Shown here in pieces: positions 16,538-28,156 of a DNA stretch of 37,326 bases; the first letter of the stretch is position 1, and the number at the start of each line of letters is the position of its first letter. The position numbers and the translations under genes were made by a program. The notes below the pieces were generated by a model. The model had not been told where the DNA came from and did no database searches. It was given only the letters and a program-made list of their open reading frames with translations. This DNA comes from an uncultured bacterium (GTDB lineage: Bacteria; Patescibacteriota; Microgenomatia; UBA1400; CAYNFZ01). The DNA lies in the NCBI GenBank assembly GCA_965369335.1, contig CBDUQH010000001.1, positions 1-37,326 on the forward strand. Reading direction: 5' to 3'.

Positions 16538-18037
16538 TTAGAGCGCTAGGAGAATACCTGTGGAGATGAAGAGAAAGCCTGTTAATGTTAGTAGTATTAG
16601 CGGTGCGGTGGTGCCGGCTTCGGGAAGGGTCTCGGCTACTGGTGTGGGTGATGGCTGAGGGGTGACTTCTGGTGTGGGTGTGATTTGAGGTGTTGGGCTT
16701 GGAGATGGGCTTGGGTCAGGCCCTCCAACAGGTGGTGTGGCTGATGGAGATGGACTGGGTGTAACTCCTGGGGATGGTGATGGATATGGTGATGCTGAAG
16801 GGCTGGGTGAAGGAGAAGGATCAGGTGAGGCCGAGGGAGAAGGTGAAGGGGAAGATGATGGACTAGGAGAAGGGGATGGAGAGGGGCTTGGGTCTGGTTC
16901 TGGGTCAGGGTTGCCACAACCATGAGGCCAAGCAATGCCTTCGATGTCATCGTAAGGGGTGGTGACGTCTTCTGATTTGACGAAATCACTGCTAGCGGGA
17001 TCGTAGGCAAAAATGGTGTTGCTGCCACCAGAGGTGTGGTAGCCGCCCATAAGCAACCCGTCGGGTCTCATTTCTAGACCTTCGATGCGATTTGGGGCTA
17101 GATTGTGTTTGATGTTGGTGAATTGTTGAGTGTCGGGAACATAGGAGTAGAGGTCTGTGCCGGTTGTTAAGTAGAGGAGGTTGCCGTCGTTGCTCCAAGC
17201 AAGGCCTTGGATAAGCTCGTCTTTGTGTTCAAAAACTAGAGTGGCTTGACCAGTTTGTAGGTTGATTTGGACTAACCCTTCGGTGTTGACCCAACCCCAA
17301 AGGCTGTTGTCTGAATCTCTAAATGAAAGAGCAGGCATGGATTTGTCGAAGCCAATGTTACCGATGAGCTCTAGTGATCCTGTTGATTTGTTGACTTTGA
17401 AGAGTTTGCCTCTTTGGGATGAGTCGTAGCCAACCGAAGCGTAGAGATCGCCAGTGGTGGGGTGGAAATCTAAACCTTCAATGTCGTGGTTTTGGAGAAC
17501 TGGGCCAAGGGCGTTGATGGCGTAGTTGTTTTTGGGATCGATGGTGAAGAATTGAGAGTTGTTGCCGCCGGCGTCATTGACTGCATAGATAAAACAAGCT
17601 TGTTCTGGTTCTGAGGCTTGTTGGCGAATGTCTTGATCTTCTTGTGAGAGGCGAATGGCAGTGAAGGTGCCAAGACCAACAATAGTCGCGCCGATGAGAA
17701 GAATGAGCATGGCGATGATTTTTTTGGTGGGTCTAAACTTCTTTTTAGTGGGTGGGTCGGAAGGAGGTGGAGTGGTGTTGGAATTAGAAGAATCGGGTAT
17801 TGGTGGAGTGTTAGTGTTTTGGGGAGTTGGAATGAGAGATGGTGGGGTATTTGGTGATTGGTCTGGGGTTGGGGTTGGTGAAGTTGGAGTGGGTTGAGGC
17901 ATGGCGCTGGTGGATGGAGTTTGGATGGGCGGAGGATTGAGTGGTTTTTCGGTGTTGGAGGTGGGGACAGTTTGAGGTTCGTTTGGTGGAGTTTGGGGCA
18001 AGTTTGGAGATGGGACGTTGGGATTATTTTGATCCAT
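16538..18037 (-). CDS. Pro-rich, membrane-anchored beta-propeller-like surface protein with LPEAG sorting-like C-terminus
   Basis: From N- to C-terminus:
- About 100-aa P/T/N-rich N-terminus, then a TM segment (IIAMLILLIGATIVGLGTFTAI).
- Repeated IEGL/IQGL/IEGI blade-like motifs.
- A PSPSPS linker.
- LPEAG followed by a hydrophobic tail. Confidence 0.75.
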   Translation of the reverse strand: MDQNNPNVPSPNLPQTPPNEPQTVPTSNTEKPLNPPPIQTPSTSAMPQPTPTSPTPTPDQSPNTPPSLIPTPQNTNTPPIPDSSNSNTTPPPSDPPTKKKFRPTKKIIAMLILLIGATIVGLGTFTAIRLSQEDQDIRQQASEPEQACFIYAVNDAGGNNSQFFTIDPKNNYAINALGPVLQNHDIEGLDFHPTTGDLYASVGYDSSQRGKLFKVNKSTGSLELIGNIGFDKSMPALSFRDSDNSLWGWVNTEGLVQINLQTGQATLVFEHKDELIQGLAWSNDGNLLYLTTGTDLYSYVPDTQQFTNIKHNLAPNRIEGLEMRPDGLLMGGYHTSGGSNTIFAYDPASSDFVKSEDVTTPYDDIEGIAWPHGCGNPDPEPDPSPSPSPSPSPSSSPSPSPSASPDPSPSPSPSASPYPSPSPGVTPSPSPSATPPVGGPDPSPSPSPTPQITPTPEVTPQPSPTPVAETLPEAGTTAPLILLTLTGFLFISTGILLAL

Positions 18038-18943
18038 AGGAATACTTTATCAGTTTGGAATGGAATGTTGAATAAGGAATCTGGTAGGTGTTGAAACAAT
18101 TGCCCCCGATAGCAAACGCTTGTTCAATTCGCTCAAACTACCGGGGGTTTTAAAAATCTGCACAGGCTTCTATTTCTAATAAACATACAAGGTGATGCTG
18201 GTGTTGTACTGCGAGCATGTGCAGACCCGCAAGCGGGCAAAAATAATTCACTAGTTGGAAAATTTTGAGAGAGGAGTCAGTTAATATCTTTGGGCTGAAA
18301 CCAACTCCCGGGGCTATTGATCGGTTACAACCTATGTTTGTTTGACAACTCTCAGGTTATAACAAGCTCCTTGTCCGGATTTTCAAAGTGAGGATAGAGC
18401 AAGCTTGGCATTTACCACCAATCGCTCGTGCGCAGCTTGCTCTTTACGATAGGTAAAAGAACTTGAGTTGATGTTGCGCAAACACTAAATCGCTTATTTC
18501 CCAACACAGCGAATATTAAAGTGCTTGATTGGTAGGTTACGTTAGTGAGAGAAAAACTACAATAAGTAGTTGGTGTGGATTCGAGTCAAACTCGATTTAA
18601 AAGCGGTATGGCAAAGTCTAACTTTGCTTTTGTATTGAGCAACTTTAACAGAGGGAGATTTGTTGATTTGAAGTTGGGAAAAACGAAACTGTGTGGTGTG
18701 GGTCGGGTGTTGCTGAGTCTTTGTTGAAGGAACCGATATTTGACCCACACTACACAGTGGAAGATTGCACAAGTGTCTTCTGCTTTGAAGTAGTGATTTC
18801 AAAGAGAAGGGGAGGCTCTTGTGATCTTTTACAAGAGCCTTTAGAGGAATGTAAAAACTTCATTCAAGTGTGCAGGGTGAGTTGATTATATTTTTGATGT
18901 TTTTGGATGTAAAGGGAGAGATTGGTGTGTTTGGTGTGGGGCA

Positions 18944-18985
18944 TCCCGGGGAGATTGATCCCGGGGAAGTTTTCCCCGGGGAGGA
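18944..18985. repeat. Three tandem copies of a ~15-nt unit containing palindromic CCCGGGG
   Basis: TCCCGGGGAGATTGA / TCCCGGGGAAGTTTT / CCCCGGGGAGGATTT, starting at 18944, 18959 and 18974. Confidence 0.8.
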
Positions 18986-19515
18986 TTTTGGGCATGAAAA
19001 ACCCCACCACGTGTCTGTGTTTGTTAGATGTGTATTTTTGCACTAGGGGTTAAGTTTGGGACACGGGTGGGGAGTATTTATCGCTTGCTTGTCGGCTAGC
19101 CCGGGTTTGGTTGTGTAACCAAAGGGCATCGTGACTAGCTACATTGGCAAGCGGGAATATGGGGGCAAGGTTGTGCTGCGGAAGGTCTGCAAAGACTTGG
19201 GTCTTATTGGCTTCAGATTGCGCTTGAGGGCGCGGGTTTGTACTTATGTTGAACTTTTTGCAAAAGGTGGTCTATCTGGTTAGGTCACCGTGTTTTCGGA
19301 TGGGTTTACTGATGTTTGTAATACTGGTGCAGACCTTCCGCCCGACAAAGTCGGCAAAGTTGGGGAGGAGGGTTCTCGAACCGATAAAAGGTGGTTGAGA
19401 ACCCTCGAAGCGCATTGGAAAAGGATAAATGCGGACCCGCTCACAAGGCCAGTGAAACGGGTCTTCCATATGAAAAAAATGAGTTTCAATTTCTCTTTAT
19501 TCGCATAAAAGCAAA

Positions 19516-19543
19516 CTGGTTCTTCTGACCAGCGCTTTTTTTT
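19516..19543 (+). terminator. Possible intrinsic terminator
   Basis: CTGGT-tcttctg-ACCAG, then CGC and TTTTTTTT. The stem is short, so confidence is moderate only. Confidence 0.4.
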
Positions 19544-19713
19544 ACGACTTTTTGTCGAGAAATTCCGCCATGATCATCACCACCGATTATTTTGCCCATT
19601 GCCACCGTCATTTGAACGACTTGGAGGGCCAGTGCCGTGATAGAGAAAGGGATACATAGGAAACCATCCTTTAATATGGATTTTCGAGAAGTGCAACACT
19701 TGTTTTGATTTAA

Positions 19714-19869
19714 GGATTGCACCTTTGGAAAGATATAAAGTCGGTGGGGGGTGAAATGTGAAGTTTTGCGATCCTGAATATCGACTACTTCGCCAAATAC
19801 TATGTGGTATATGTCTTCGTGTTGGTTTTAGGATGACGAAATTTGTATATCCTTTCAGAGGTGCAATCC
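19714..19869 (+). other. 156-nt element closed by a 24-bp imperfect inverted repeat
   Basis: GGATTGCACCTTTGGAAAGATATA (19714-19737) pairs with TATATCCTTTCAGAGGTGCAATCC (19846-19869). That gives 21 Watson-Crick pairs, 2 G-U pairs valid only on the + strand, and 1 A-C mismatch. Confidence 0.7.
19765..19841 (+). repeat. Structured motif copy 1 (stem ATCCTGAA / TTTAGGAT, flanked by ..TTTTGCG and GACGAAA)
   Basis: Shares CTGAATATCG and TTT-AG-[GA]-ATGACGA with copy 2. The stem shows compensatory changes relative to copy 2. Confidence 0.6.
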
Positions 19870-19906
19870 GTTGCTTGTCAATGTTTGTCTATACACAACT
19901 CAATAC

Positions 19907-19954
19907 TTTTCGATTCTGAATATCGGCATAAATGCCGGTTTCAGAATGACGAGA
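19907..19954 (+). repeat. Structured motif copy 2 (stem ATTCTGAA / TTCAGAAT, inner hairpin CGGCA-taaa-TGCCG)
   Basis: Same flanks as copy 1 (CTTTTCG ... GACGAGA) and an 8-bp perfect stem. Confidence 0.6.
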
Positions 19955-20557
19955 TTGGATTGTGTGTAGATTTGTTAGCGATATTTTAATGAGCGTGTTA
20001 CTAAAGGTGTAACGGAGGGATAAATTGTAAGGTGTGTTTTAAATTAGCTTGTGCGAGAGTTTGGATAGCGTGGTCAAAGAGAGAGGGAGAAAAATCGTCG
20101 GTATGTATTTTTTTTATCTCTTGGCCACTAGAAGTCTCCGCACAAGCTTCTTGCAATAAATTTTTTTGGTCCATTCCAAAGTTGTATTGGAGGGACACTA
20201 AGTAGGGAAAACCCAAAGGCTAACCACGCATGATTAGCCTTGGTCCGATGTACTACTTCACAACATTCAGCGACATGGTTTTACGAGTTGTTGAAGTGTA
20301 CATCGCTTCGAGAAATGATACTGGTAACAGTGTTATATTGTTTCATAATAGTCCTTTCTGACTATATAAACGGATGTATAACACGGACACTGGAATAGCG
20401 ACCTAAATAACCATTCCGGTGTCAGTGTTTTAGCAATATAACTGGGTTTTCCCGATTTAAGGTACGGGTGTAACTATAGTGGGCGAGATAAAGATGAGCA
20501 ATGTATAAGAGGTGTGTAAAAATTAGGCCGATAGAGTTGTTTAATGTGTTTTATAGG

Positions 20558-20586
20558 TTGATACCTTGGGAAATGGGGGTTAAAAT
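20558..20586 (+). promoter_or_regulatory. Sigma70-type promoter, TTGATA-N17-TAAAAT
   Basis: TTGATA at 20558-20563 and TAAAAT at 20581-20586. The spacer ends in GGGGGT, as in the other island promoters. Confidence 0.5.
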
Positions 20587-20681
20587 AGGCGTTTGCTAAG
20601 ATTCACATTTTGCAATTTATGCGGGGTGAACCGAAAGCAATTTTTGCCCTTTTAGCCCTTTACCATAAGGAATGGAGAAGA

Positions 20682-21674
20682 ATGGATTTACAGACTTTGT
20701 ATCTGCAGTATCTGGTGTTGTTGTGTTCAAGAGATAAAAACACGATAACAAAGGCTTTTGGTTATGTTGGTAGTATTTCTCAATTTCAGGTTGAGCTGGT
20801 TGTGGAAAGAGACTCGCGGGAATTCGCTTTATATTTCCGTTTTTTTGATAAAGCTGATAGTGAAGTCAATCAATACAACTTGAGTCTGTCCAAGGCTTCA
20901 CTTTCAGAAGCAGTTTTGATCTGGGGAATAGCTGATCAAATGACCAAACTTGATGTGGTAGTGCTGAGTGAGGTGGTGGCGCGTATTCATCACACTGTGG
21001 TTGAATCTGTTAGTGATGATTTACGACGAGCTTTGCCGGTGGGTTTTCAAGTTGCTCTTGATCGGGTTTTTGATCGCTTTGACAAAGATGTCTTGCTGGA
21101 AAAAGTATTGAATCATAGAGGATTGTTTGATCTTTATGATTTGGATGTCTTTTTTGTAAAGTTTGAACACCTGTGGAATGCAGAAGTTTTTGAACCTCTA
21201 AAGATCACTAATCCTCAAAAGTTTATGGCTTTCATTGATGGCTCATGTTTGCTCTTGAAGGATGCTGGGTTGGAAGAGATATTTCACCGTTTTGCTCAGT
21301 ACAAGCAGATATCATATGTCACTGAACTAAAGATTATGGTGGAATTTATCTGTATGCTTGACGATTTCCGTAGAACACCGCCTGTCTTGGTTTTGTGGTG
21401 GACATTGCAGAAGTTTGGGTTAGTCGAAGTAGGTGATCATATTTTTGATTCAGAGTACTTTGGTCCGGTAACTCAGATTTTAGATGATGTTCTAATTTCT
21501 TCTGAAATTTACGTTGTTGAAACAGATATGCCAACGGTATCACCTAAGGTCTCAAGTACAGCAAGCCGTGTTGAACTGACTGAAGACGAAATTGTGCCAA
21601 AGGTACAATCAGACGATGATACAGCCAAATTGTTATTATATTTGGATACGAATGAGACTGCTGCTGTTGGTTAG
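20682..21674 (+). CDS. Island protein 1, acidic cytoplasmic hypothetical
   Basis: The ORF is open from TTG 20610. ATG 20682 is preferred because AAGGAATGGAGA lies just upstream and the promoter sits at 20558-20586. No signal peptide or TM segment. Confidence 0.6.
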   Translation: MDLQTLYLQYLVLLCSRDKNTITKAFGYVGSISQFQVELVVERDSREFALYFRFFDKADSEVNQYNLSLSKASLSEAVLIWGIADQMTKLDVVVLSEVVARIHHTVVESVSDDLRRALPVGFQVALDRVFDRFDKDVLLEKVLNHRGLFDLYDLDVFFVKFEHLWNAEVFEPLKITNPQKFMAFIDGSCLLLKDAGLEEIFHRFAQYKQISYVTELKIMVEFICMLDDFRRTPPVLVLWWTLQKFGLVEVGDHIFDSEYFGPVTQILDDVLISSEIYVVETDMPTVSPKVSSTASRVELTEDEIVPKVQSDDDTAKLLLYLDTNETAAVG

Positions 21675-21704
21675 ACCTCAAACTCCATATTACATGGGCA
21701 AAAA

Positions 21705-21741
21705 AGCCCCCGAAACTACAAATGTAGCTAGGGGGTTTTTT
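21705..21741 (+). terminator. Intrinsic terminator
   Basis: GCCCCC...GGGGG followed by TTTTTT. Confidence 0.65.
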
Positions 21742-21897
21742 GGTAGTTGCTGATATGAGTATGTTTTGATTGTGACCAATTTATGACAGATATGTCGATG
21801 AAGGGTTATTTTTTTGACTTGAGGGTATAATTGGGGTGTTTTGTCCAAGCTTGGTGAGATTTGGATCGAGTTTGGATGCACTTTGACAACCAACATG

Positions 21898-21933
21898 GCT
21901 TCAACTGAGTGAGTGGGGATACTCAATTGAAGC
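21898..21933 (+). promoter_or_regulatory. Leader hairpin upstream of island gene 2
   Basis: GCTTCAACTGAGT-gagtgggga-TACTCAATTGAAGC with one C-A mismatch and a G-rich loop. It lies 30 nt before the ATG. Confidence 0.5.
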
Positions 21934-21963
21934 TGTGTATATATAGAGTAAAAGGACAAAATA

Positions 21964-23238
21964 ATGTCGAAGCAGAACGTTTTAATGCAATTACCGTTTA
22001 AAGCTTTAAAAAAGTATAACTGGGATGATAAGTATTATTCTGGCAAAGCTTCACTGCGATTGGTGAGTCAATACAATCGGCTTTGGTTGGTGCGAGTAAT
22101 CTCCAACAAAAGAGGTGACTTTGAAGTTGGACGATTGAGTCTAGTCAACGCACATCCTGTGTTTGATTTGTATGGATTTATTCGAGTGATGGGATTGATG
22201 CGGCTAGTGTTGACAGAAGTGTTTACGGCGTCGCCCTTTGTTTGGCAGACGGATGCTGATCAAGAAGATGGTGGTTTGCCGAAAAAAGATCAAAGCTGGT
22301 TGATTGGGCTAGGTGAGTTGGCGTCTATTTTAGAAAACATGATTGCTTCTAGAATTGGTGCCGATCAACGACTTAGCCTTGATGAATTGTATGATCCTGA
22401 AGAGCTGACCACATTTGTTGAGAATTGGATTAATTGGGGGTTCTTGCCTGTTTGGCTGCCCAAAGTTTGGGATCAGCTTGACCCAGATGTTTCGGTTCTT
22501 GGTGAGCTTTACAACAAGCAAATGGTAAACAGATTGATGCTTGAGCAGATAAGTTTTTTTGATCAGATGCCTTTGTGGTTGAACTGGCAAGATTGGGAAG
22601 ATGCAGATTCACCAACTATCTTGCAACAAGAAGGTGAATATCTGAAATGGATGATTTTTACCACGGCTAAACAGTTGAAGATGAGTTTTGCCTATGGTAG
22701 TTCTGAGTGGTATCTGGCGACACTAATGTCTGTTTATACCGAAATGGTGCTGATGCGAACTGTTGATTTAGAGGCTCGTATTTCTGGGAAGTTGTTTAAA
22801 TTTGCTGTTCGGATAGCAGATCATTTTGAGTGTGAGCTGATCGAGCTGCTTGAAATTTTGCGTCCATATTGGCAGCATCAATATGATGTTGATTGGGTCG
22901 TTGAAGAGTGGAGTCTGCCAGACCAGAAGAATTGGGAGGGTACTTTTGGATACTTAAATTACCAGTTTGTTTCAGGCAGGTTTGATGCCAGTGGTGAGAG
23001 TTTGGACGATCTTCCCCCTAAATTGGTTGAAGCTTTGGGTGAATATCCTTGTCAGATTGGGATAGAAGCTTGGCGAATATGGAAATATGTGTTGCGCCAA
23101 TTTGGGGATAGGCTTACCAACGATCAAGCTGAGTACTTGAAGTTATGGGTGATTGTGCTTGGTGGTGCAAGACACGATTGCTTTCTATATGACAATATGT
23201 CACTGGTGATGGATGAGCTTGATGTAGCTCACGCCTAA
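21964..23238 (+). CDS. Island protein 2, acidic Trp-rich cytoplasmic hypothetical (424 aa)
   Basis: Long ORF with AAAAGGA 6 nt upstream of the ATG. No recognised domain. Confidence 0.7.
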   Translation: MSKQNVLMQLPFKALKKYNWDDKYYSGKASLRLVSQYNRLWLVRVISNKRGDFEVGRLSLVNAHPVFDLYGFIRVMGLMRLVLTEVFTASPFVWQTDADQEDGGLPKKDQSWLIGLGELASILENMIASRIGADQRLSLDELYDPEELTTFVENWINWGFLPVWLPKVWDQLDPDVSVLGELYNKQMVNRLMLEQISFFDQMPLWLNWQDWEDADSPTILQQEGEYLKWMIFTTAKQLKMSFAYGSSEWYLATLMSVYTEMVLMRTVDLEARISGKLFKFAVRIADHFECELIELLEILRPYWQHQYDVDWVVEEWSLPDQKNWEGTFGYLNYQFVSGRFDASGESLDDLPPKLVEALGEYPCQIGIEAWRIWKYVLRQFGDRLTNDQAEYLKLWVIVLGGARHDCFLYDNMSLVMDELDVAHA

Positions 23239-23276
23239 TATGGTATGAATTTTGACTCTATATGTGGTTGTTTATT

Positions 23277-23313
23277 GACCCCTTTGGCCTAGAGCTGGAG
23301 GGGTTGTTTTTTT
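23277..23313 (+). terminator. Intrinsic terminator (ACCCCT...AGGGGT + T-run)
   Basis: The same sequence recurs at 26828-26864 and 28120-28156. Confidence 0.7.
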
Positions 23314-23362
23314 AAGGATGGTGCTTGTAAGCAGAATTGGAAGTGTTGTTGAATCTATGATA

Positions 23363-23391
23363 TTGAGTGTGGGGTCTTTATGGGTTAGAAT
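23363..23391 (+). promoter_or_regulatory. Sigma70-type promoter, TTGAGT-N17-TAGAAT
   Basis: TTGAGT at 23363-23368 and TAGAAT at 23386-23391. Confidence 0.5.
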
Positions 23392-23452
23392 TTGGTGCTT
23401 TGGCGTTGCCTGTTGGCGGCAGTTAAAGCGCACTTTGACATCTGGTAGTTTA

Positions 23453-23493
23453 GGTTTCACATAGCGAGCTGGGGGAGTTGGCTATGTGAAATC
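23453..23493 (+). promoter_or_regulatory. Leader hairpin (13-bp stem, 15-nt G-rich loop)
   Basis: GGTTTCACATAGC-gagctgggggagttg-GCTATGTGAAATC, including one G-U pair valid on the + strand. It is followed by CTAAGTTTAGA and RBS AAGGA. Confidence 0.65.
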
Positions 23494-23520
23494 TAAGTTT
23501 AGAGATAAGGATAATGAAAG

Positions 23521-24543
23521 ATGTTTAATGCGTATTTACGATTGCTTCAGGAAGAAAGTGGTATGAATTTGGGGCAGATGCGGAATCATATTGAGCAAGA
23601 GCATGAAAAGGCTCTTGCTGCGTTGACTCCAAAAATCTTGCGTCAAAGTAGTCTTCGTCAGGTTGTGTTTCACGGTTTGGATGGTGAAGTGGAAACTGGA
23701 GAGCGATGTTTAGTGGTCTACGTGGTTTTGGGACGAATTTGTTTTGGTGCAGTTAAACATCCTGATGATTTGTGGAAAAGCCGTGGGCAAACCGAATTTG
23801 GTGAAGTTAAGTCTTACTTCGACATGATTCGTCACTGGAAGCTGATGTCGAAGATTAACACAATGTCTCAAGAAATGTTTGATTTGATTGGTGAGGCAAT
23901 TAGCGTGGGAGGAGATCCAGAAGATCAACAGAAATTGATCAATATGGTTGGGCGTAAAGCCTTTGATGAAGCCATGATTATCGATAAAGAAACTGTGGAT
24001 CAATATTTGGAACTATTGGTTGACGGTCTTGTGTGGGGCACACAGTTGTCGCGTGAAGTTCATCGTGGAATGCTAAAGTGGCAAGATCGGTTTGAAGAGT
24101 ATCGCCAATATGCTGTGTTAGATCCTGATGAATGGCTGGAGCGGCTGGCGTTTACTTGTGGTGATGATGCCATTGAACTGATGTCCACGTTGGCTGATAC
24201 ACTCAGTGGTAAGGACGAAGAAGAAATGCAGCTATTTTTTACCTCCCTTAGCCAAGCCGTAGAGCGTGGTTTTGGATATGTTTTCGATTGTGGGTTTGCA
24301 TCGCGTGAAGATGTGTCTGTGGCAATGGCTCACTATTGTGGGTTGCTATGGACATTGATTCGAAGTGATATAGTGTATGAACTGCTGGAATTTTCGGATA
24401 CAGAATCGTTGGATATTGTGGTCATGGATACTATTTATGACTACTATGGTGAGGAATCGTTGGGAAGCAAAGAGCAATGTCGGCAATTGTGTGAGACGTT
24501 GTGGAAAAACCACGAATCTTTGCTGGGAAATCATGACGAATAA
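23521..24543 (+). CDS. Island protein 3 (paralogue of 27063-28079)
   Basis: 340 aa. Shares KWQDRFEEYRQY, GFGYVFDCGFA and NHESLL with the 27063 product. Confidence 0.8.
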   Translation: MFNAYLRLLQEESGMNLGQMRNHIEQEHEKALAALTPKILRQSSLRQVVFHGLDGEVETGERCLVVYVVLGRICFGAVKHPDDLWKSRGQTEFGEVKSYFDMIRHWKLMSKINTMSQEMFDLIGEAISVGGDPEDQQKLINMVGRKAFDEAMIIDKETVDQYLELLVDGLVWGTQLSREVHRGMLKWQDRFEEYRQYAVLDPDEWLERLAFTCGDDAIELMSTLADTLSGKDEEEMQLFFTSLSQAVERGFGYVFDCGFASREDVSVAMAHYCGLLWTLIRSDIVYELLEFSDTESLDIVVMDTIYDYYGEESLGSKEQCRQLCETLWKNHESLLGNHDE

Positions 24544-24573
24544 TCCTTGGTAATCTACTACCTGTATGTTAAT

Positions 24574-24610
24574 GACCCCTTTGGACGATGTGCCTGAGGG
24601 GTTGTTTTTT
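24574..24610 (+). terminator. Intrinsic terminator
   Basis: ACCCCT..AGGGGT followed by TGTTTTTT. Confidence 0.65.
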
Positions 24611-24626
24611 GTGTGTACCCTATAGT

Positions 24627-24655
24627 TTGAGATTGGGGTTGTTATGGGGTAAAAT
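24627..24655 (+). promoter_or_regulatory. Sigma70-type promoter, TTGAGA-N17-TAAAAT
   Basis: TTGAGA at 24627-24632 and TAAAAT at 24650-24655. The spacer ends in ATGGGG. Confidence 0.5.
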
Positions 24656-24700
24656 CGGTGTCTGTTCGGCACTTTAAAAGATTTCTTGTGAAGGAGAACT

Positions 24701-24748
24701 AGGACACAAATAGCTAGAGGCTACTTGGCCTTTGGCTATTTGTGTCCT
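24701..24748 (+). promoter_or_regulatory. Leader hairpin (14-bp perfect stem; different sequence, same position)
   Basis: AGGACACAAATAGC...GCTATTTGTGTCCT, followed by the same CTAAGTTTAGA box and an AGGAG RBS. Confidence 0.65.
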
Positions 24749-24773
24749 AAGTTTAGACAGGAGAATGAAGGTA

Positions 24774-25640
24774 ATGAAAGTTTTGCATCGTGAGTATGTA
24801 AGTGGGTTTGGGTTTCTTGGCAAACATGTTGCTGTTGAGATTATCCTAAGTCTTCCAGAAACCGGAGGGCGTTATGAGTTGGCGATAAAGTATGGTAAGC
24901 AAGGTGGAGTCACTGAGACTTACAAGTATGCTGACGTTGATTTTTGTATCATCGTGTTTAGAATGCTTCTGACCTACAATCGACAGCTGAAGGTCAGTGA
25001 AGATGCTGCTTATGCAAGCGTGTATTCTTCTTTGTTGCAATTCGGTAGTTATGACAAGGTTGATCCGAATTTAGTTAATGCTTTGGGGCTTGAACCTTTT
25101 GAGGTTATTAATCAGCCTTTCGAAGGTTGGGAAGAAGAAGTGATTAATGAACAAGCCTTGGCTGGGAACTTTGATCTACACGCGGTTAGTATTTTGGTTG
25201 ACCATGGGATGTTGAAGCTTCGAGAAGAACTTGAAAGTAAGTTAGCAGAAGCTATGGCTGATTTTGAAAGTTGGCTTGATGCCACTGGATTAAATAACTT
25301 GTTTGACCTATTGGAGCCAAGCGAAGTGTTTTCCATCTTTGCGACTGAACGGGCAGCTTTGATCAGAACTTCATTTGTTATTTGGGACAAAGGTGAAGAA
25401 ATTCATGCTAATCAATCTAGTCATGTGATTGCTTTGGCTGTGTTGATTCGGTGCAATAGTGCCGTTTCCTTTCATGGTTCAAAACAAAATCTCAAAAGTA
25501 AAGCTAACTCTCTTGGGATTTTAATGATGCTGCCTTTCGTTTGGTCTAGCTATGATCTTCCCGGTGATCAGAATATTGATCAAATCGTGCAAGAAACGTT
25601 GGATTTTCTGGATTTACTGAAGCAATCTAGCGAACTGTAG
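24774..25640 (+). CDS. Island protein 4, acidic cytoplasmic hypothetical
   Basis: The ORF is open from TTG 24732, which would put the start inside the leader hairpin. ATG 24774 is preferred (AGGAG at 24759-24763); ATG 24765 is an alternative. Confidence 0.65.
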   Translation: MKVLHREYVSGFGFLGKHVAVEIILSLPETGGRYELAIKYGKQGGVTETYKYADVDFCIIVFRMLLTYNRQLKVSEDAAYASVYSSLLQFGSYDKVDPNLVNALGLEPFEVINQPFEGWEEEVINEQALAGNFDLHAVSILVDHGMLKLREELESKLAEAMADFESWLDATGLNNLFDLLEPSEVFSIFATERAALIRTSFVIWDKGEEIHANQSSHVIALAVLIRCNSAVSFHGSKQNLKSKANSLGILMMLPFVWSSYDLPGDQNIDQIVQETLDFLDLLKQSSEL

Positions 25641-25662
25641 AACTACAAAATCCTATGTGCCG

Positions 25663-25702
25663 ATAACCCTTTTGGAGAAAATTCCGAAAGGGTTATTTTT
25701 TT
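25663..25702 (+). terminator. Intrinsic terminator
   Basis: ATAACCCTTT / AAAGGGTTAT 10-bp stem followed by T6. Confidence 0.7.
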
Positions 25703-25788
25703 GGCTTGAAAGGCTATAATTGGGTGGATTTGTCAGGCTACTTTTGTTTGCAAAAGATAGTTTGAGTTCTTTAACAGACAAAGAGGCA

Positions 25789-25829
25789 GGTTTCACATAG
25801 CGAACTGGGGGAGTTGGCTATGTGAAATC
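25789..25829 (+). promoter_or_regulatory. Leader hairpin (same sequence as the 26994 copy)
   Basis: GGTTTCACATAGC-gaactgggggagttg-GCTATGTGAAATC. A TATAAT box lies at 25715-25720 upstream. Confidence 0.65.
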
Positions 25830-25856
25830 TGAACAAATAGTAGATTGGATAATCTA

Positions 25857-26798
25857 ATGAAGTTTTTTGGTTTGTACCCTGTAGTGGGTAAGTGTAATGT
25901 TCCTGACAATGTAATATATTGGCCTCCAAAGATACCTTTGTTTTCAGAGAAAACCTGGGCTGGTTTGGGTAGCTTTGATACTAAGGTAATGATGCAATTT
26001 TTGCTCCAAGTTGTGGATGGTGAGCTGTGCATTGTTGCCCAGAAGGATGGTGATTTTTCAGGTGAGGTGTATTTGCGTTATCGTGATAAGCGTTTTAATA
26101 ACCCCTTAAACTTCTTCGACCTAATTCGGGTTTGTGATGCAGCTAATGCTAGTAAGCGGATAAGCCCCACGCTGTTTATGTCATTGGTTTTTTGGCTGTG
26201 TAAGGGTGATGAACACAGCGGTGCGCTTGCTTTAGAACAAGTCTTGCAGAACAAGGATTGGATGGCAGATGACATTAGTCGGCAAGAATTGGACTATTAT
26301 CATTTGTTGTTGGTCCAAGGTTTGGTTGAAGGTGTGGATCTTGTGGAGTCGAAAGCGCGTTTGGCTTCATACATTGACCTCGAAGAAACTTTGAAGGAGA
26401 TGAAGAGGTTTGGGGTGATGAATAAAGCTGAAGTGCTTAATATTGCTGAATTTGTGTCGGAAACTTATGACCAAATCATTTGGCGTTTTGAAGGGTTTTT
26501 GCAAACTCGTCAGGTCATTATACAAAAAGCAATATTGTCTGGGTTCAAATGGGCTTATGCACGGGGGTTGTATTTTGATCCCAAATTGGCACATTTTGCT
26601 CATTTTAACGCTATGTTGTGGATATTGTTGGAGAACGACGTTGATTTGGAAACGGCTCAAGAACTGGTGGCGGAGTTTTTGGTGGATGAACGAGGAATGG
26701 GTGATAGCCACGCGAACTTTTTTGCAGGGTTGGGGCAATTTCGGATTGGCTACTATAACCACTATGGTTGGGAAGTGCCGGTGCCGGCTGATTCTTAG
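25857..26798 (+). CDS. Island protein 5 (distant paralogue of proteins 3 and 6)
   Basis: The track starts at TTG 25845; ATG 25857 is an alternative. Three motifs align with proteins 3 and 6: FFDLIRV, YHLLLVQGLVEGVDL and GFKWAYARGLYF. Confidence 0.7.
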   Translation: MKFFGLYPVVGKCNVPDNVIYWPPKIPLFSEKTWAGLGSFDTKVMMQFLLQVVDGELCIVAQKDGDFSGEVYLRYRDKRFNNPLNFFDLIRVCDAANASKRISPTLFMSLVFWLCKGDEHSGALALEQVLQNKDWMADDISRQELDYYHLLLVQGLVEGVDLVESKARLASYIDLEETLKEMKRFGVMNKAEVLNIAEFVSETYDQIIWRFEGFLQTRQVIIQKAILSGFKWAYARGLYFDPKLAHFAHFNAMLWILLENDVDLETAQELVAEFLVDERGMGDSHANFFAGLGQFRIGYYNHYGWEVPVPADS

Positions 26799-26827
26799 CT
26801 TGTTTCTCTCTCTTTGTTTAGTTGATT

Positions 26828-26864
26828 AACCCCTTTGGCCTAGAGCTGGAGGGGTTGTTTTTTT
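26828..26864 (+). terminator. Intrinsic terminator
   Basis: AACCCCT...AGGGGTT followed by GTTTTTTT. Confidence 0.7.
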
Positions 26865-26903
26865 GTGGATGTTCTTGCCGAGAAGCTATTTGAATCTAAG
26901 GGT

Positions 26904-26932
26904 TTGAGTGTAGAGGCTTTATGGGTTAGAAT
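26904..26932 (+). promoter_or_regulatory. Sigma70-type promoter, TTGAGT-N17-TAGAAT
   Basis: TTGAGT at 26904-26909 and TAGAAT at 26927-26932. Confidence 0.5.
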
Positions 26933-26993
26933 TTGGTGCTTTGGCGTTGCCTGTTGGCGGCAGTTAAAGCGCACTTTGACATCTGGTAGTTTA

Positions 26994-27034
26994 GGTTTCA
27001 CATAGCGAACTGGGGGAGTTGGCTATGTGAAATC
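26994..27034 (+). promoter_or_regulatory. Leader hairpin
   Basis: Same as 23453-23493 except for one loop base. Confidence 0.65.
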
Positions 27035-27062
27035 TAAGTTTAGAGATAAGGATTAGCTCATT

Positions 27063-28079
27063 ATGTCAGGAAGTGATTTTTTGGTAATTTTTAAAGCTGA
27101 TGCAGAAATGACATTGCGCGAAATGCAAGACTTTTTTCGCCAAAAGCATGATGAAGTACAAGAGCTTTTGAATCCAGAAATCTTGCGTCAGTGTTCCCCC
27201 AGGACGGTTAAGTTGGAATCTGAGAATGGCGATTTGATCGAAAAGGAAGTTGTTATCATCGTTTACAAGGTTAAGGGTCAAATTCGTATAGATGCCGTTG
27301 AAAGAGCTGATGACTTGATCGATCTGAAACATCCAATGAACTTTGGTGAGATTGACTCGTTTTTCGATGCGATCCGCCATTGGACTTTGTTGTGTCAAAT
27401 CAATGAAGTGTCGCAAGAAGTGTTTGATCTGATTAATGAAGCCATTAGTGTGGAAGGTAGTCCGGAAGTACGTGATCAGTTGGTACGTAGAGTGGGGCAA
27501 ACATCGTTTGATTTGGCGATGTATGTTGACACGTTGACGATGAATCAATACCTGACACTTTTGGAGGAAGGGGTGGCTTTAGGTGCCCAATTGTCCCTTG
27601 AAGTTCATTGGGGAAGGATTAAATGGCAAGATCGGTTTGAAGAGTATCGCCAGTACGGAGTGTTAAGCCCAGAAGAATGGCAGGAGCGAGTGGAATTTAC
27701 CACAAGCGATGAAGTCATTGGTTTGATGTCTGAAGTGGCTGCTTTTGTTGCCGGTGATGATGGAGTGTTTGATCATGCTTTTGAAGCGTTGAATCTTGCC
27801 TGTGGTCTTGGGTTTGGGTATGTTTTCGATTGTGGTTTTGCCCAGCGTGAAGATGTTTCTTTGTACACAAAGCTTCTTATTGGTTTGTGGGAAACTGTGA
27901 ATAACAGTGATTTTGTCTCAGAGATTTTTAGTGTCCTTGATTCAAAAGATCAAGGTTTGGCTCTTGCTGGAGTGATGGTGGAGTATTTTGGTACGGGTTC
28001 GATTGGGGAAGTATCAGAATTCCTGAAACAAGCATTGTTACTTTGGGAGAACCATGAATCTTTGTTGGTAGAGGATTAA
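27063..28079 (+). CDS. Island protein 6 (paralogue of 23521-24543)
   Basis: 338 aa, collinear with protein 3 along its whole length. Confidence 0.8.
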   Translation: MSGSDFLVIFKADAEMTLREMQDFFRQKHDEVQELLNPEILRQCSPRTVKLESENGDLIEKEVVIIVYKVKGQIRIDAVERADDLIDLKHPMNFGEIDSFFDAIRHWTLLCQINEVSQEVFDLINEAISVEGSPEVRDQLVRRVGQTSFDLAMYVDTLTMNQYLTLLEEGVALGAQLSLEVHWGRIKWQDRFEEYRQYGVLSPEEWQERVEFTTSDEVIGLMSEVAAFVAGDDGVFDHAFEALNLACGLGFGYVFDCGFAQREDVSLYTKLLIGLWETVNNSDFVSEIFSVLDSKDQGLALAGVMVEYFGTGSIGEVSEFLKQALLLWENHESLLVED

Positions 28080-28119
28080 TCCTTAGAAGTTCGTTGACTC
28101 TAACTATCAGAATGTTATT

Positions 28120-28156
28120 AACCCCTTTGGCCTAGAGCTGGAGGGGGTGTTTTTTT
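28120..28156 (+). terminator. Intrinsic terminator (third copy of the ACCCCTTTGGCCTAGAGCTGGAGGGG element)
   Basis: Lies between the convergent island gene 6 and the RND gene. Confidence 0.7.

What the first reader, a model, noticed from the sequence alone, without database searches (positions are those of the whole stretch)
23376..27053. Promoter/leader cassette conserved at 136/137 nt while the downstream paralogues have diverged to about half identity
Blocks 23376-23512 and 26917-27053 span from just before the -10 box to the RBS. I compared them base by base and they differ only at 23468/27009 (G/A, in a hairpin loop). A 41-nt sub-block recurs at 25788-25829.

The CDSs they drive (23521-24543 and 27063-28079) are only about half identical at protein level by eye. 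The sequence between terminator and promoter is also diverged.

Non-coding sequence that is far better conserved than adjacent coding sequence implies one of three things:
- strong purifying selection on an RNA or DNA regulatory element;
- targeted gene conversion of the leaders;
- diversifying selection on the proteins.
Basis: seen in the sequence. Interest (0 to 1): 0.75.

Follow-up and report, generated by a model that had tools for sequence, protein, structure and literature searches.

The report
Recently homogenised promoter-leader between old paralogues
Two old, diverged sister genes in an uncultured bacterium carry almost identical promoter and RNA-leader sequences, most likely because short stretches of regulatory DNA were recently copied between neighbouring orphan genes; this kind of process is already known.

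Summary
Blocks 23376-23512 and 26917-27053 match at 136/137 nt. The genes they drive are 44% identical as proteins and 57% as DNA, and their synonymous sites are saturated (dS about 1.7, dN/dS about 0.3).

This rules out a recent duplication and rules out diversifying selection.

The identical block covers the -10 box, the whole 5' UTR and the Shine-Dalgarno sequence, and stops 8 nt before the ATG. The UTR folds into two hairpins. The second hairpin (H2) is conserved in structure: seven compensatory pair changes appear in the diverged copies upstream of genes B and C. The A and B leaders are only 60% identical, so function does not require 99% identity.

H2 is also 43/43 identical upstream of gene C, inside unrelated flanks. 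One terminator is 35/35 identical after three different genes, and a second promoter block is shared by genes E and C.

My best reading is a hypervariable array of orphan genes beside an AcrB-type (RND) efflux pump gene, probably in a Patescibacteria genome. Its regulatory modules appear to be homogenised and shuffled by short-patch gene conversion. This resembles the PeSL cassettes of T4-type phages.

No homologue of the genes or the leader exists in any collection searched, so the conversion is inferred, not shown.

The parts
20682..21674 (+). Gene F, an orphan gene and the first gene of the array (the ORF opens at TTG 20610; ATG at 20682)
   Evidence: ORF list. No Pfam, PHROGs or PADLOC family. 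It has its own promoter-like site at 20558-20586.
21801..21845 (+). Module P2 upstream of gene E: the 3' half of terminator T2, a TATAAT box (21826-21831) and the start region. It is shared with 25688-25734.
   Evidence: Repeat families D15 and D18 and the alignment. The 5' half of the T2 hairpin is missing here.
21832..21963 (+). Gene E leader: hairpin 1, a linker with GCACTTTGA (21878-21886), hairpin 2, then the SD
   Evidence: Fold z -4.66. Motif search.
21964..23238 (+). Gene E, a 424-aa orphan gene
   Evidence: No detectable similarity to genes A/D.
23278..23312 (+). Terminator T1, copy 1 (ends gene E)
   Evidence: Terminator scan. 35/35 identical to 26829-26863.
23313..23362 (+). Diverged spacer between T1 and the -35 box
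   Evidence: 58% identity with indels to 26864-26903.
23363..23391 (+). Promoter-like site P1 of gene A (TTGAGT, 17 nt, TAGAAT)
   Evidence: Consensus scan. 26/29 identical to the gene D copy and 23/29 to the gene B copy.
23376..23512 (+). The 137-nt near-identical block, gene A copy (-10 box, whole 5' UTR, SD)
   Evidence: 136/137 identical to 26917-27053.
23397..23429 (+). Leader hairpin H1 of gene A (14 pairs, UGUU loop), at the inferred 5' end of the mRNA
   Evidence: Folds: sense strand -19.0 against antisense -9.0 kcal/mol.
23430..23438 (+). Linker motif GCACTTTGA between H1 and H2
   Evidence: All 3 window matches lie in leaders. Both matches in locus L007 lie in leaders too. The motif was defined after seeing these sequences.
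23449..23497 (+). Leader hairpin H2 of gene A (about 21 pairs)
   Evidence: Covariation.
23507..23511 (+). Shine-Dalgarno AAGGA of gene A. The identity block ends one base later.
   Evidence: Read from the sequence. Segment map.
23521..24543 (+). Gene A, a 340-aa orphan gene and paralogue of gene D
   Evidence: 44% amino-acid identity to D. dN/dS 0.30. Genes A and D are the only members found in 5.8 and 1.84 billion proteins.
24573..24611 (+). Terminator after gene A (a variant of T1, 72% identical)
24627..24773 (+). Gene B promoter and leader, a diverged homologue of the A/D leader. Its H2 spans 24696-24754.
   Evidence: Promoter scan. 70/116 identity to the gene A leader. Fold z -7.11. Six compensatory pairs in H2.
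24774..25640 (+). Gene B, a 288-aa orphan gene (an alternative ATG lies at 24765)
   Evidence: Homology to A/D is not established.
25662..25697 (+). Terminator T2 (ends gene B)
25688..25734 (+). Module P2 upstream of gene C (TATAAT at 25715-25720), shared with gene E
25788..25830 (+). H2 patch in the gene C leader, 43/43 identical to gene D's H2, with unrelated flanks
   Evidence: The base pair just outside the patch is compensated (U-A to C-G). The covariance model aligns the whole gene C leader at E 3e-10.
25857..26798 (+). Gene C, a 313-aa orphan gene and distant paralogue of A/D
   Evidence: blastp 22% identity, E 9e-7. hhalign E 1.5e-4 over 207 columns.
26829..26863 (+). Terminator T1, copy 2 (ends gene C)
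26917..27053 (+). The 137-nt near-identical block, gene D copy (H1 26938-26970, H2 26990-27038, SD 27048-27052)
27063..28079 (+). Gene D, a 338-aa orphan gene and paralogue of gene A
28121..28155 (+). Terminator T1, copy 3 (ends gene D; one mismatch)

Best explanation
**What it is.** Genes A to D (and more loosely E and F) form a tandem array of fast-evolving orphan genes beside an RND (AcrB-type) efflux pump gene. The genome is probably from Patescibacteria. Each gene is its own transcription unit:
- a sigma-70-like promoter;
- a 5' UTR of about 120 nt with a 5'-terminal hairpin (H1), a single-stranded linker and a long hairpin (H2) just ahead of the Shine-Dalgarno sequence;
- the CDS;
- an intrinsic terminator.

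**How the identity arose.** The A-D duplication is old. The near-identity of the two promoter-leader blocks is secondary. A short tract from about 23376 to 23512 was recently overwritten by non-reciprocal homologous recombination (gene conversion) between the two leaders. Similar short patches homogenised H2 in the gene C leader and terminator T1 after genes E, C and D. Another patch placed promoter block P2 in front of both E and C.

**Why the tracts are confined (inferred).** Purifying selection on the RNA structures slows divergence of these modules enough for recombination to keep acting on them. The diverged spacers and coding sequences block tract extension.

**Possible trigger (inferred).** H2, a 47-nt near-palindrome, lies in both leader patches and may be where the events start.

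**What the leader does (inferred, not tested).**
- H1 protects the mRNA 5' end.
- H2 has 20-25 bp of double-stranded RNA next to the ribosome-binding site. It may act as a processing site (RNase III-type) or a protein-binding site.
- Together these would give A, D and partly C the same expression control.
For: **Shown here**
- Identity is 136/137, with sharp edges.
- CDS synonymous sites are saturated. pS is 0.67 and dS about 1.68. Identical codons at conserved residues are 56% against 46% expected from codon usage.
- dN/dS is 0.30, so both are real genes under constraint.
- The spacer between T1 and the promoter is 58% identical with indels, and the 3' flanks are 49%.
- The gene B leader is homologous but only 60% identical. 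It has 6 compensatory pairs in H2. Function therefore does not demand sequence identity.
- H2 is 43/43 identical in the gene C leader within unrelated flanks.
- T1 is 35/35 identical after non-homologous genes.
- The P2 block is shared by genes E and C, with a truncated T2 hairpin at one junction.
- Leader folds have z-scores of -4.7 to -7.1.
- The 120 nt upstream of the six island genes have z of -3.2 to -7.9. The other 21 genes range from +1.2 to -3.5.
- The four longest hairpins in the window are the four H2 copies.
- Every hairpin is 3-16 kcal/mol more stable on the sense strand.
- A covariance model built from A, D and B finds the gene C leader at E 3e-10.
- The two closest relatives that hold long orphan genes here (loci L005 and L007) carry unrelated or barely related orphan genes at the same locus. 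These have the same two-hairpin leader design.

**Inferred:** the conversion mechanism, its initiation at H2, and the roles in mRNA stability or processing.
Against: - No orthologous locus exists in any collection searched. The classic test cannot be run, namely whether the paralogous tracts are closer to each other than to their orthologues.
- The T1 copies and the leader copies are separated by a diverged spacer. At least two separate patches are therefore needed rather than one event. This makes a contribution from selection harder to exclude.
- The 3' edge of the tract falls exactly between SD and ATG. This looks more like a functional boundary than a random end of a recombination tract.
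- A 43-nt patch without flanking homology (gene C) is short for RecA-type conversion.
- The TSS is inferred only from a 9/12 consensus match, and promoter rules in this lineage are not established.
- The extreme G+T richness of the + strand (GC skew +0.33) favours G.U pairs by itself. This weakens the sense/antisense argument.
Confidence: 0.6

Rival explanations
1. Pure purifying selection. Every base of the leader (and of H2 and T1) is constrained, for example by a sequence-specific RNA- or DNA-binding partner. The copies are as old as the genes and simply never changed.
For: - H2 is clearly under structural selection.
- The identity block matches functional boundaries, from the -10 box to the SD.
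- The only substitution keeps a pair, A-U to G.U.
- The leader architecture recurs in relatives.
Against: - The homologous gene B leader is 60% identical and has a differently sequenced H2.
- The -35/-10 spacer region shows 3 changes in 29 nt, and positions 23349-23375 are about 74% identical. This is the level expected for a constrained promoter, compared with 120/121 in the UTR.
- Unpaired loop and linker bases, a G.G mismatch and G.U pairs are all unchanged, while the flanks have become unalignable.
- No known cis-regulatory RNA is conserved at 99% over a time in which synonymous sites saturate (own knowledge).
Confidence: 0.15
2. A mobile promoter-leader cassette (putative mobile promoter, or MITE/Correia-like element) inserted independently upstream of genes A and D. 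On this reading H2 is a smaller mobile hairpin.
For: - Upstream blocks of at least 50 nt at 80% identity or more in front of dissimilar genes are widespread in prokaryotes (PMC3575422).
- H2 occurs as an isolated 43-nt patch in the gene C leader.
- Correia elements carry promoters and form hairpins in transcripts (PMC3575422 for the promoters; the rest is own knowledge).
Against: - The block has no terminal inverted repeats and no target-site duplications at its edges (sequence).
- All copies lie within one 5-kb array in the 37-kb window, and none lie elsewhere.
- The genes behind the two full copies are paralogues. The gene B and C leaders are diverged homologues of the same leader. The leader was therefore duplicated with the genes, not inserted.
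- No transposase is present in the window.
Confidence: 0.1
3. Cassette replacement. The regulatory modules are the stable framework, and divergent coding sequences were swapped in from other strains by recombination anchored in the leader and T1. This is modular shuffling of the PeSL type rather than conversion of the leader.
For: - Gene D is bracketed by the conserved leader and by T1.
- The locus differs in gene content between this window and loci L005, L007 and L006.
- In T4-type phages, PeSL motifs mediate exactly this kind of exchange (PMC2839356).
Against: - It still requires the leader to be near-identical at two loci or in two strains beforehand, so it does not remove the need for homogenisation.
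- No donor sequences were found anywhere.
Confidence: 0.08
4. A recent tandem duplication followed by diversifying selection or targeted hypermutation of the coding sequences.
For: The leader is far better conserved than the CDS.
Against: - dS is about 1.7 and dN/dS about 0.30.
- The spacer and the 3' flanks are equally diverged.
- No reverse transcriptase or diversity-generating retroelement is present. The only hit is a noise-level PADLOC reverse-transcriptase match at E 0.0048.
Confidence: 0.02
5. An assembly or polishing artefact in a metagenome-assembled contig made the two leader copies look identical.
For: The window is a single 37-kb contig seen once. Repeats of this size are where assemblers and polishers go wrong.
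Against: - Polishing can remove a few differences between copies that are already near-identical. It cannot create 99% identity from about 60%.
- Three independent module families show the same pattern.
- One real difference is retained.
Confidence: 0.03

Closest known systems
PeSL (promoter-early stem-loop) regulatory cassettes in the hyperplastic regions of T4-type phages (Arbiol et al. 2010, PMC2839356; Comeau et al. 2014, PMC4122927)
   Same: - Repeated composite motifs (sigma-70-like promoter plus stem-loop terminator) sit immediately upstream of orphan genes in a hypervariable region.
- The conserved non-coding motifs flank unrelated genes.
- They are proposed substrates for recombination that shuffles gene modules.
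   Different: - This locus is in a bacterial chromosomal context, with RND pump, UPF0182, NadE and L28 genes nearby and no phage families.
- The terminator and promoter are separated by a diverged spacer.
- The conserved block is dominated by a 120-nt two-hairpin 5' UTR, which PeSLs lack.
- There are only 2-3 copies per module.
- No mini-circle or indel evidence is available.
Putative mobile promoters / promoter reuse (Matus-Garcia, Nijveen and van Passel 2012; PMC3575422)
   Same: Highly similar upstream sequence, well above their threshold of 80% over 50 nt, in front of coding sequences that are not similar at nucleotide level.
   Different: - The genes here are old paralogues, and the leaders are ancestrally homologous.
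- The identity is therefore re-homogenisation within a family, not capture of a foreign promoter.
Segmental gene conversion and concerted evolution between bacterial paralogues (survey: PMC6053082; the bab/sab outer-membrane paralogues of Helicobacter pylori and tufA/tufB are from my own knowledge)
   Same: Sharply bounded tracts of near-identity inside otherwise diverged paralogous units in one genome.
   Different: - The tracts here cover only non-coding regulatory modules and stop at the start codon.
- Several independent modules of 35-137 nt are affected.
5' UTR hairpins that stabilise mRNAs or are RNase III processing sites (ompA 5' stem-loop, T7 early RNase III sites, lambda N leader; own knowledge)
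   Same: A stem-loop at the extreme 5' end and a double-stranded RNA hairpin of about 20-25 bp just upstream of the ribosome-binding site.
   Different: The resemblance is only structural. No cleavage or stability data exist, and there is no sequence similarity to any Rfam family.

Membership tests
Segmental interlocus gene conversion between paralogues | The two units as a whole are old duplicates (neutral sites diverged) | tested here: met
   - dS is about 1.68.
- Third-position identity is 46%.
- Identical codons at conserved residues are 56% against 46% expected.
- The spacer is 58% identical with indels.
Segmental interlocus gene conversion between paralogues | A sharply bounded tract of near-identity far beyond chance | tested here: met
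   136/137 identity with a 92-nt perfect run. The edges are at 23376 and 23512.
Segmental interlocus gene conversion between paralogues | Identity exceeds what functional constraint alone maintains in homologous copies | tested here: met
   A and B leaders are 70/116 identical, with compensatory changes in H2.
Segmental interlocus gene conversion between paralogues | Paralogous tracts are closer to each other than to orthologues in related genomes | not testable with these tools
   No orthologue of genes A/D or of the leader was found in 5.8 billion or 1.84 billion proteins, or in genome, metagenome, viral, phage or plasmid DNA.
PeSL cassettes of T4-type phages | Located in hyperplastic regions of a T4-type phage genome | tested here: not met
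   The flanks are cellular genes. No meaningful PHROGs hit. No relative in viral contigs.
PeSL cassettes of T4-type phages | Repeated composite of a sigma-70-like promoter and a stem-loop terminator immediately upstream of orphan genes | tested here: met
   Promoter and terminator scans. Repeat families. The genes are orphans.
PeSL cassettes of T4-type phages | Recombination between copies creates insertions, deletions, replacements or mini-circles | not testable with these tools
   Only indirect evidence: mosaic junctions and different gene content at the locus in relatives.
Putative mobile promoters | At least 80% identity over at least 50 nt of upstream sequence within one genome | tested here: met
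   164 nt at 95%.
Putative mobile promoters | Adjacent coding sequences are not paralogous | tested here: not met
   Genes A and D are paralogues at 44% amino-acid identity, although nucleotide identity is only 57%.
Known cis-regulatory RNA families (Rfam 15) | A match at or above a family's gathering score | tested here: not met
   No match at gathering thresholds. The only matches are sub-threshold hits to miRNA-precursor hairpin models.
Integron attC / gene-cassette array | attC hairpins of about 55-140 nt with R''/R' (RYYYAAC / GTTRRRY) boxes 3' of promoterless cassettes, plus an IntI integrase | tested here: not met
   - T1 is a 35-nt hairpin with a T-run that scores as an intrinsic terminator.
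- By eye, the box consensus is not matched in T1 or H2 (sequence).
- Every gene has its own promoter-like site.
- No integrase was found among the ORFs scanned.
- No dedicated attC model was available.
REP / MITE / Correia-type mobile hairpins | Terminal inverted repeats with target-site duplication, and many dispersed copies | tested here: inconclusive
   There is no target-site duplication, and all copies lie inside the array. Only 37 kb of the genome can be seen.
Intrinsic (Rho-independent) terminator (module T1) | A G+C-rich stem-loop followed by a T-run downstream of a stop codon | tested here: met
   10-13-bp stems with 6 G-C pairs plus T7, lying 40-42 nt after the stops of genes E, C and D.

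The most novel reading that the evidence does not exclude
The two-hairpin leader (H1, a GCAC-N-TTGA linker, then H2) is an undescribed cis-regulatory RNA class. It would mark a hypervariable 'orphan-gene nursery' beside the RND pump in this Patescibacteria-like lineage. Its palindromic hairpins and terminators would also serve as recombination anchors that let gene cassettes be exchanged, deleted or circularised. This would be a cellular, chromosomal counterpart of phage PeSL shuffling.
Probability: 0.12. Interest if true: 0.75.

Novelty: new variant of a known kind. Interest (0 to 1): 0.5.

Why it matters
If the reading is right, this is a clean example of regulatory DNA evolving in concert while the genes it drives drift apart. 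It occurs in a lineage (probably Patescibacteria) whose gene regulation is almost unstudied.

- It shows that promoter, leader and terminator modules can behave as exchangeable units in a cellular chromosome. That behaviour has so far been documented best for T4-type phages.
- It marks a small, experimentally tractable RNA leader that co-regulates members of a hyper-divergent orphan-gene family.
- It is a caution for annotation. Near-identical upstream regions do not date a duplication.

Tried and rejected
**Searches that found nothing**
- Gene A alone, and an A+D profile, returned only A and D.
- A profile of the relatives' orphan genes returned only those genes themselves.
- Leader, H2, H1 and T1 DNA patterns were scanned against genome, metagenome and viral contigs. 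The only returns were four unrelated palindromes in Mucilaginibacter, Spirochaetota and Oscillatoriales.
- blastn of the regulatory unit against phages and plasmids gave no match.
- An A+D protein search in viral contigs found no relative.
- Exact look-ups of the window's own proteins for neighbouring contigs found them not on record.
- Cluster look-up gave no names.

**Function of gene A**
- The AlphaFold2 model is poor (pLDDT 52).
- Foldseek against the PDB gave nothing below E 0.3.
- Pfam, PHROGs and PADLOC gave nothing.

**RNA models tested and dropped**
- *Riboswitch-like switch.* The linker CUUUGAC could pair with the 3' strand of H1, as RNAalifold suggested. The alternative fold is about 8 kcal/mol worse than full H1, so it is not supported.
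- *SD sequestration by the linker.* It is strong in gene B and in two relatives but weak in A and D, so it is not a general feature.
- *A second promoter at the linker TTGACA.* No acceptable -10 box lies at 16-18 nt (by eye).

**Other checks**
- The covariance model from A, D and B did not reach gene E or the relatives' leaders. The best hit, in L007, had E 6.6. Cross-genome similarity is therefore in architecture only.
- Integron attC and MITE readings were rejected on anatomy.
- Profile comparisons of A/D with gene B, gene E and the relatives' orphan genes were not significant.

Full report
**1.

- Blocks 23376-23512 and 26917-27053 differ at one position in 137 (23468 G against 27009 A).
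- The repeat finder extends the pair to 164 nt at 95% (23349-23512 and 26890-27053).
- The sub-block is 43 nt, at 25788-25830. It is identical to the gene D copy and has one mismatch to the gene A copy. There are three matches in the window against none in 100 shuffles.
- The two coding sequences are 44% identical as proteins and 57% identical in a codon alignment, with 46% at third positions.

**2. Segment-by-segment comparison of the two units**

| Segment | Identity between the gene A and gene D units |
|---|---|
| Upstream terminator T1 | 35/35 |
| Spacer from terminator to -35 | 58%, with indels |
| -35 to -10 | 26/29 |
| Inferred transcription start to Shine-Dalgarno | 120/121 |
| The 8-9 nt between Shine-Dalgarno and ATG | unrelated |
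| CDS | about 57-60% |
| 3' flank | 49% |
| Downstream terminators | 72% |

The identical block therefore coincides with the -10 box, the whole 5' UTR and the ribosome-binding site. The promoter is a consensus match only (TTGAGT, 17 nt, TAGAAT; 9 of 12). The transcription start is inferred from it.

**3. The duplication is old**

- By the Nei-Gojobori method, pS is 0.67 and dS about 1.68, which is effectively saturated. dN is 0.50 and dN/dS about 0.30.
- At conserved, degenerate residues only 56% of codons are identical. Codon usage alone predicts 46%.
- This excludes a simple recent duplication.
- It also excludes diversifying selection as the cause of the contrast. Selection on amino acids cannot saturate synonymous sites or scramble the spacer.
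- dN/dS of 0.3 shows that both are real genes under constraint.

**4. The leader is a structured RNA under selection, but selection does not require identity**

- The A/D leader folds into a 14-bp hairpin H1 that begins a few bases after the inferred start. It is followed by an unpaired linker and a hairpin H2 of about 21 bp that ends 10 nt before the Shine-Dalgarno. The fold is -52.8 kcal/mol with z -6.5.
- The leaders of genes B, C and E have the same design, with z from -4.7 to -7.1.
- On an alignment of the H2 region of A, D, B and C, all 19 pairs form in all four sequences. Seven pairs carry changes on both sides: six in B and one in C. None of 500 shuffles reached this, and sliding the partner columns collapses pairing to 15-42%.
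- The A and B leaders are only 70/116 identical, and their promoters 23/29. The function therefore tolerates extensive sequence change. The 99% identity between A and D must reflect recent common ancestry of those two copies.
- The structure is specific to this array:
  - The 120 nt upstream of the six island genes give z of -3.2 to -7.9. The other 21 genes give +1.2 to -3.5.
  - The four longest hairpins in the window are the four H2 copies.
- All hairpins are 3-16 kcal/mol more stable on the sense strand because of G.U pairs, which points to an RNA-level role. The caveat is that the + strand is extremely G+T-rich (GC skew +0.33), which favours G.U pairs by itself.
- No Rfam family matches.

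**5. The A/D leader is one of several homogenised patches**

- H2 is 43/43 identical in the gene C leader, and the flanks there are unalignable.
- A covariance model built from A, D and B aligns the whole gene C leader at E 3e-10. C therefore carries an old, diverged homologue of the leader with a fresh H2 patch.
- Terminator T1 is identical after genes E and C and has one mismatch after gene D, and these three genes are not alike. E shows no detectable similarity to the others, and C and D are at most distant paralogues.
- A second block is shared at about 87-89% by the regions upstream of genes E and C (21801-21845 and 25688-25734). It contains the 3' half of terminator T2, a TATAAT box and the start region. 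At gene E the 5' half of the T2 hairpin is missing, which marks a junction inside the hairpin.
- The intergenic regions of the array are thus a mosaic of modules of about 35-140 nt, each in two or three near-identical copies.
- Inside the A/D coding sequences there is also one 29-nt perfect run (24079 / 27624). Only 0.02% of codon-column shuffles reach this length. It may be a small older patch, but clustering of conserved residues inflates that test.

**6. Context**

- Genes A and D are the only members of their family in 5.8 billion clustered proteins and in 1.84 billion representatives searched with a profile.
- Gene C is a distant paralogue: blastp E 9e-7, and hhalign E 1.5e-4 over 207 collinear columns.
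- Genes B, E and F show no significant similarity to the others.
- None of the six has a Pfam, PHROGs or PADLOC family. The structure model of gene A is too poor to use.
- The flanking genes are ordinary cellular genes:

| Side of the array | Genes |
|---|---|
| Beyond gene D | RND pump and its membrane-fusion protein, M50 peptidase, ribosomal protein L28, NAD synthase |
| Beyond gene F | UPF0182, MFS transporter, 2-hydroxyacid dehydrogenase |

- The pump's best homologues are 63-64% identical. Most of the named hits are Patescibacteria or Candidatus Dojkabacteria. The taxonomic assignment is therefore weak.

**7. The locus varies between relatives, and the leader design recurs in two of them**

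- L005 has one 350-aa orphan gene between the pump and UPF0182. L007 has a 133-aa and a 332-aa orphan gene.
- Those proteins are at best marginally similar to each other and to gene E (26%, E 4e-5; 25%, E 0.004).
- Their leaders fold the same way: a long hairpin, an unpaired linker and a 19-23-bp hairpin ahead of the ribosome-binding site, with z from -3.7 to -5.5.
- A short linker motif, GCAC-N-TTGA, occurs only in leaders, three times in the window and twice in L007. It was defined after seeing these sequences.
- A more distant relative, L006, has a short unstructured leader at this locus.
- No copy of the leader, H1, H2 or T1 sequence was found in any DNA collection.

**8. Most likely mechanism**

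Shown:
- The paralogues are old.
- The RNA structures are under selection.
- Several sharply bounded patches of near-identity lie in a mosaic.

Inferred:
- The patches arise by short-tract non-reciprocal recombination between neighbouring regulatory modules.
- The tracts are confined because the spacers and coding sequences are too diverged to support strand exchange.
- The modules stay similar enough because selection slows their divergence.
- H2 lies in both leader patches. As a 47-nt near-palindrome it is a plausible initiation site.

Function is also inferred. H1 at the 5' end probably stabilises the mRNA. H2 is probably a processing or binding site next to the ribosome-binding site. Two more specific RNA models were tested and not supported: a switch involving the linker, and general Shine-Dalgarno sequestration.

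**9. Rivals**

| Rival | Main problem | Estimated probability |
|---|---|---|
| Pure purifying selection | The B leader comparison, and complete conservation of unpaired, mismatched and wobble positions | 0.15 |
| Independently inserted mobile cassette | No terminal repeats or target duplications, and the B and C leaders are diverged homologues | 0.10 |
| Cassette replacement anchored in the modules | Compatible with the data, but still needs homogenised modules beforehand | 0.08 |
| Assembly or polishing artefact | Cannot create 99% identity from 60% | 0.03 |
| Recent duplication with diversifying selection | Refuted by synonymous-site saturation | 0.02 |

**10. Comparison with known systems**

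- The closest analogue is the PeSL cassette of T4-type phages. These are repeated promoter-plus-stem-loop motifs upstream of orphan genes in hyperplastic regions, where recombination between motifs shuffles genes (PMC2839356).
- The design and the inferred role in recombination are alike. This locus is not a PeSL member: it is chromosomal, has no phage genes, and its conserved core is a long structured 5' UTR.
- It meets the sequence criterion for 'putative mobile promoters' (PMC3575422), but the genes are paralogues.
- It is best filed as segmental gene conversion of regulatory modules. The defining phylogenetic test cannot be run because no orthologues exist.

**11. Verdict**

- The phenomenon is a variant of known processes rather than a new kind of system.
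- The interesting residue is a lineage-specific leader architecture tied to a hypervariable orphan-gene locus. It is worth testing with read-level and strain-level data.

Noticed in passing
window 1-37326 (whole contig); also L005 and L007: Strand composition is extremely asymmetric. There are 10416 G against 5303 C on the + strand (GC skew +0.33), whatever the gene orientation. Third codon positions have skew +0.4 to +0.5 in + strand genes and -0.72 to -0.77 in - strand genes. Relatives L005 and L007 show the same sign relative to the pump gene (-0.18 and -0.28). This is unusually strong for a bacterium.
   Followed up: partly
window 18040-20600: This 2.5-kb stretch between the 499-aa gene and gene F has no ORF longer than 81 aa. 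It contains three direct CCCGGGGA repeats (18945-18981) and two long-range inverted repeats (19171-19191 / 19328-19348 and 19714-19737 / 19846-19869). No Rfam match. It could hold decayed cassettes or unknown RNAs.
   Followed up: partly
window 24079-24107 and 27624-27652: A 29-nt perfect run lies inside the otherwise saturated A/D coding sequences (it encodes WQDRFEEYRQ). All nine degenerate codons are identical. P is 0.0002 by codon-column shuffling, which clustering of conserved residues inflates. It may be an older micro-conversion patch.
   Followed up: partly
window 21801-21845 and 25688-25734: A second shared regulatory block (terminator tail, TATAAT box and start region) lies upstream of the unrelated genes E and C. 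The gene E copy has only the 3' half of the terminator hairpin, which suggests a recombination junction inside the hairpin.
   Followed up: yes
window 16538-28100 compared with L005:6455-8210, L007:3421-5934 and L006:13345-14094: The locus beside the 3' end of the RND pump gene differs completely in gene content between this contig and its closest relatives. It holds one, two or six-plus orphan genes. L007's 332-aa and L005's 350-aa proteins are marginally similar (26%, E 4e-5). A shared F-D-x-I/W-R-like helix motif may link them to A, C, D and E, but this was not significant by hhalign.
   Followed up: partly
window 23514-23528: Upstream of gene A only, a four-codon mini-ORF (ATG AAA GAT GTT TAA) overlaps the gene A start codon out of frame. 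It lies just 3' of the identity block and is absent upstream of gene D.
   Followed up: no
window 17470-18099 (-) overlapping 16538-18037 (-): A proline-rich 209-aa ORF overlaps the 5' end of the 499-aa gene in another frame and is probably spurious. The 499-aa protein has only a sub-threshold DUF4394 / beta-propeller hit.
   Followed up: no
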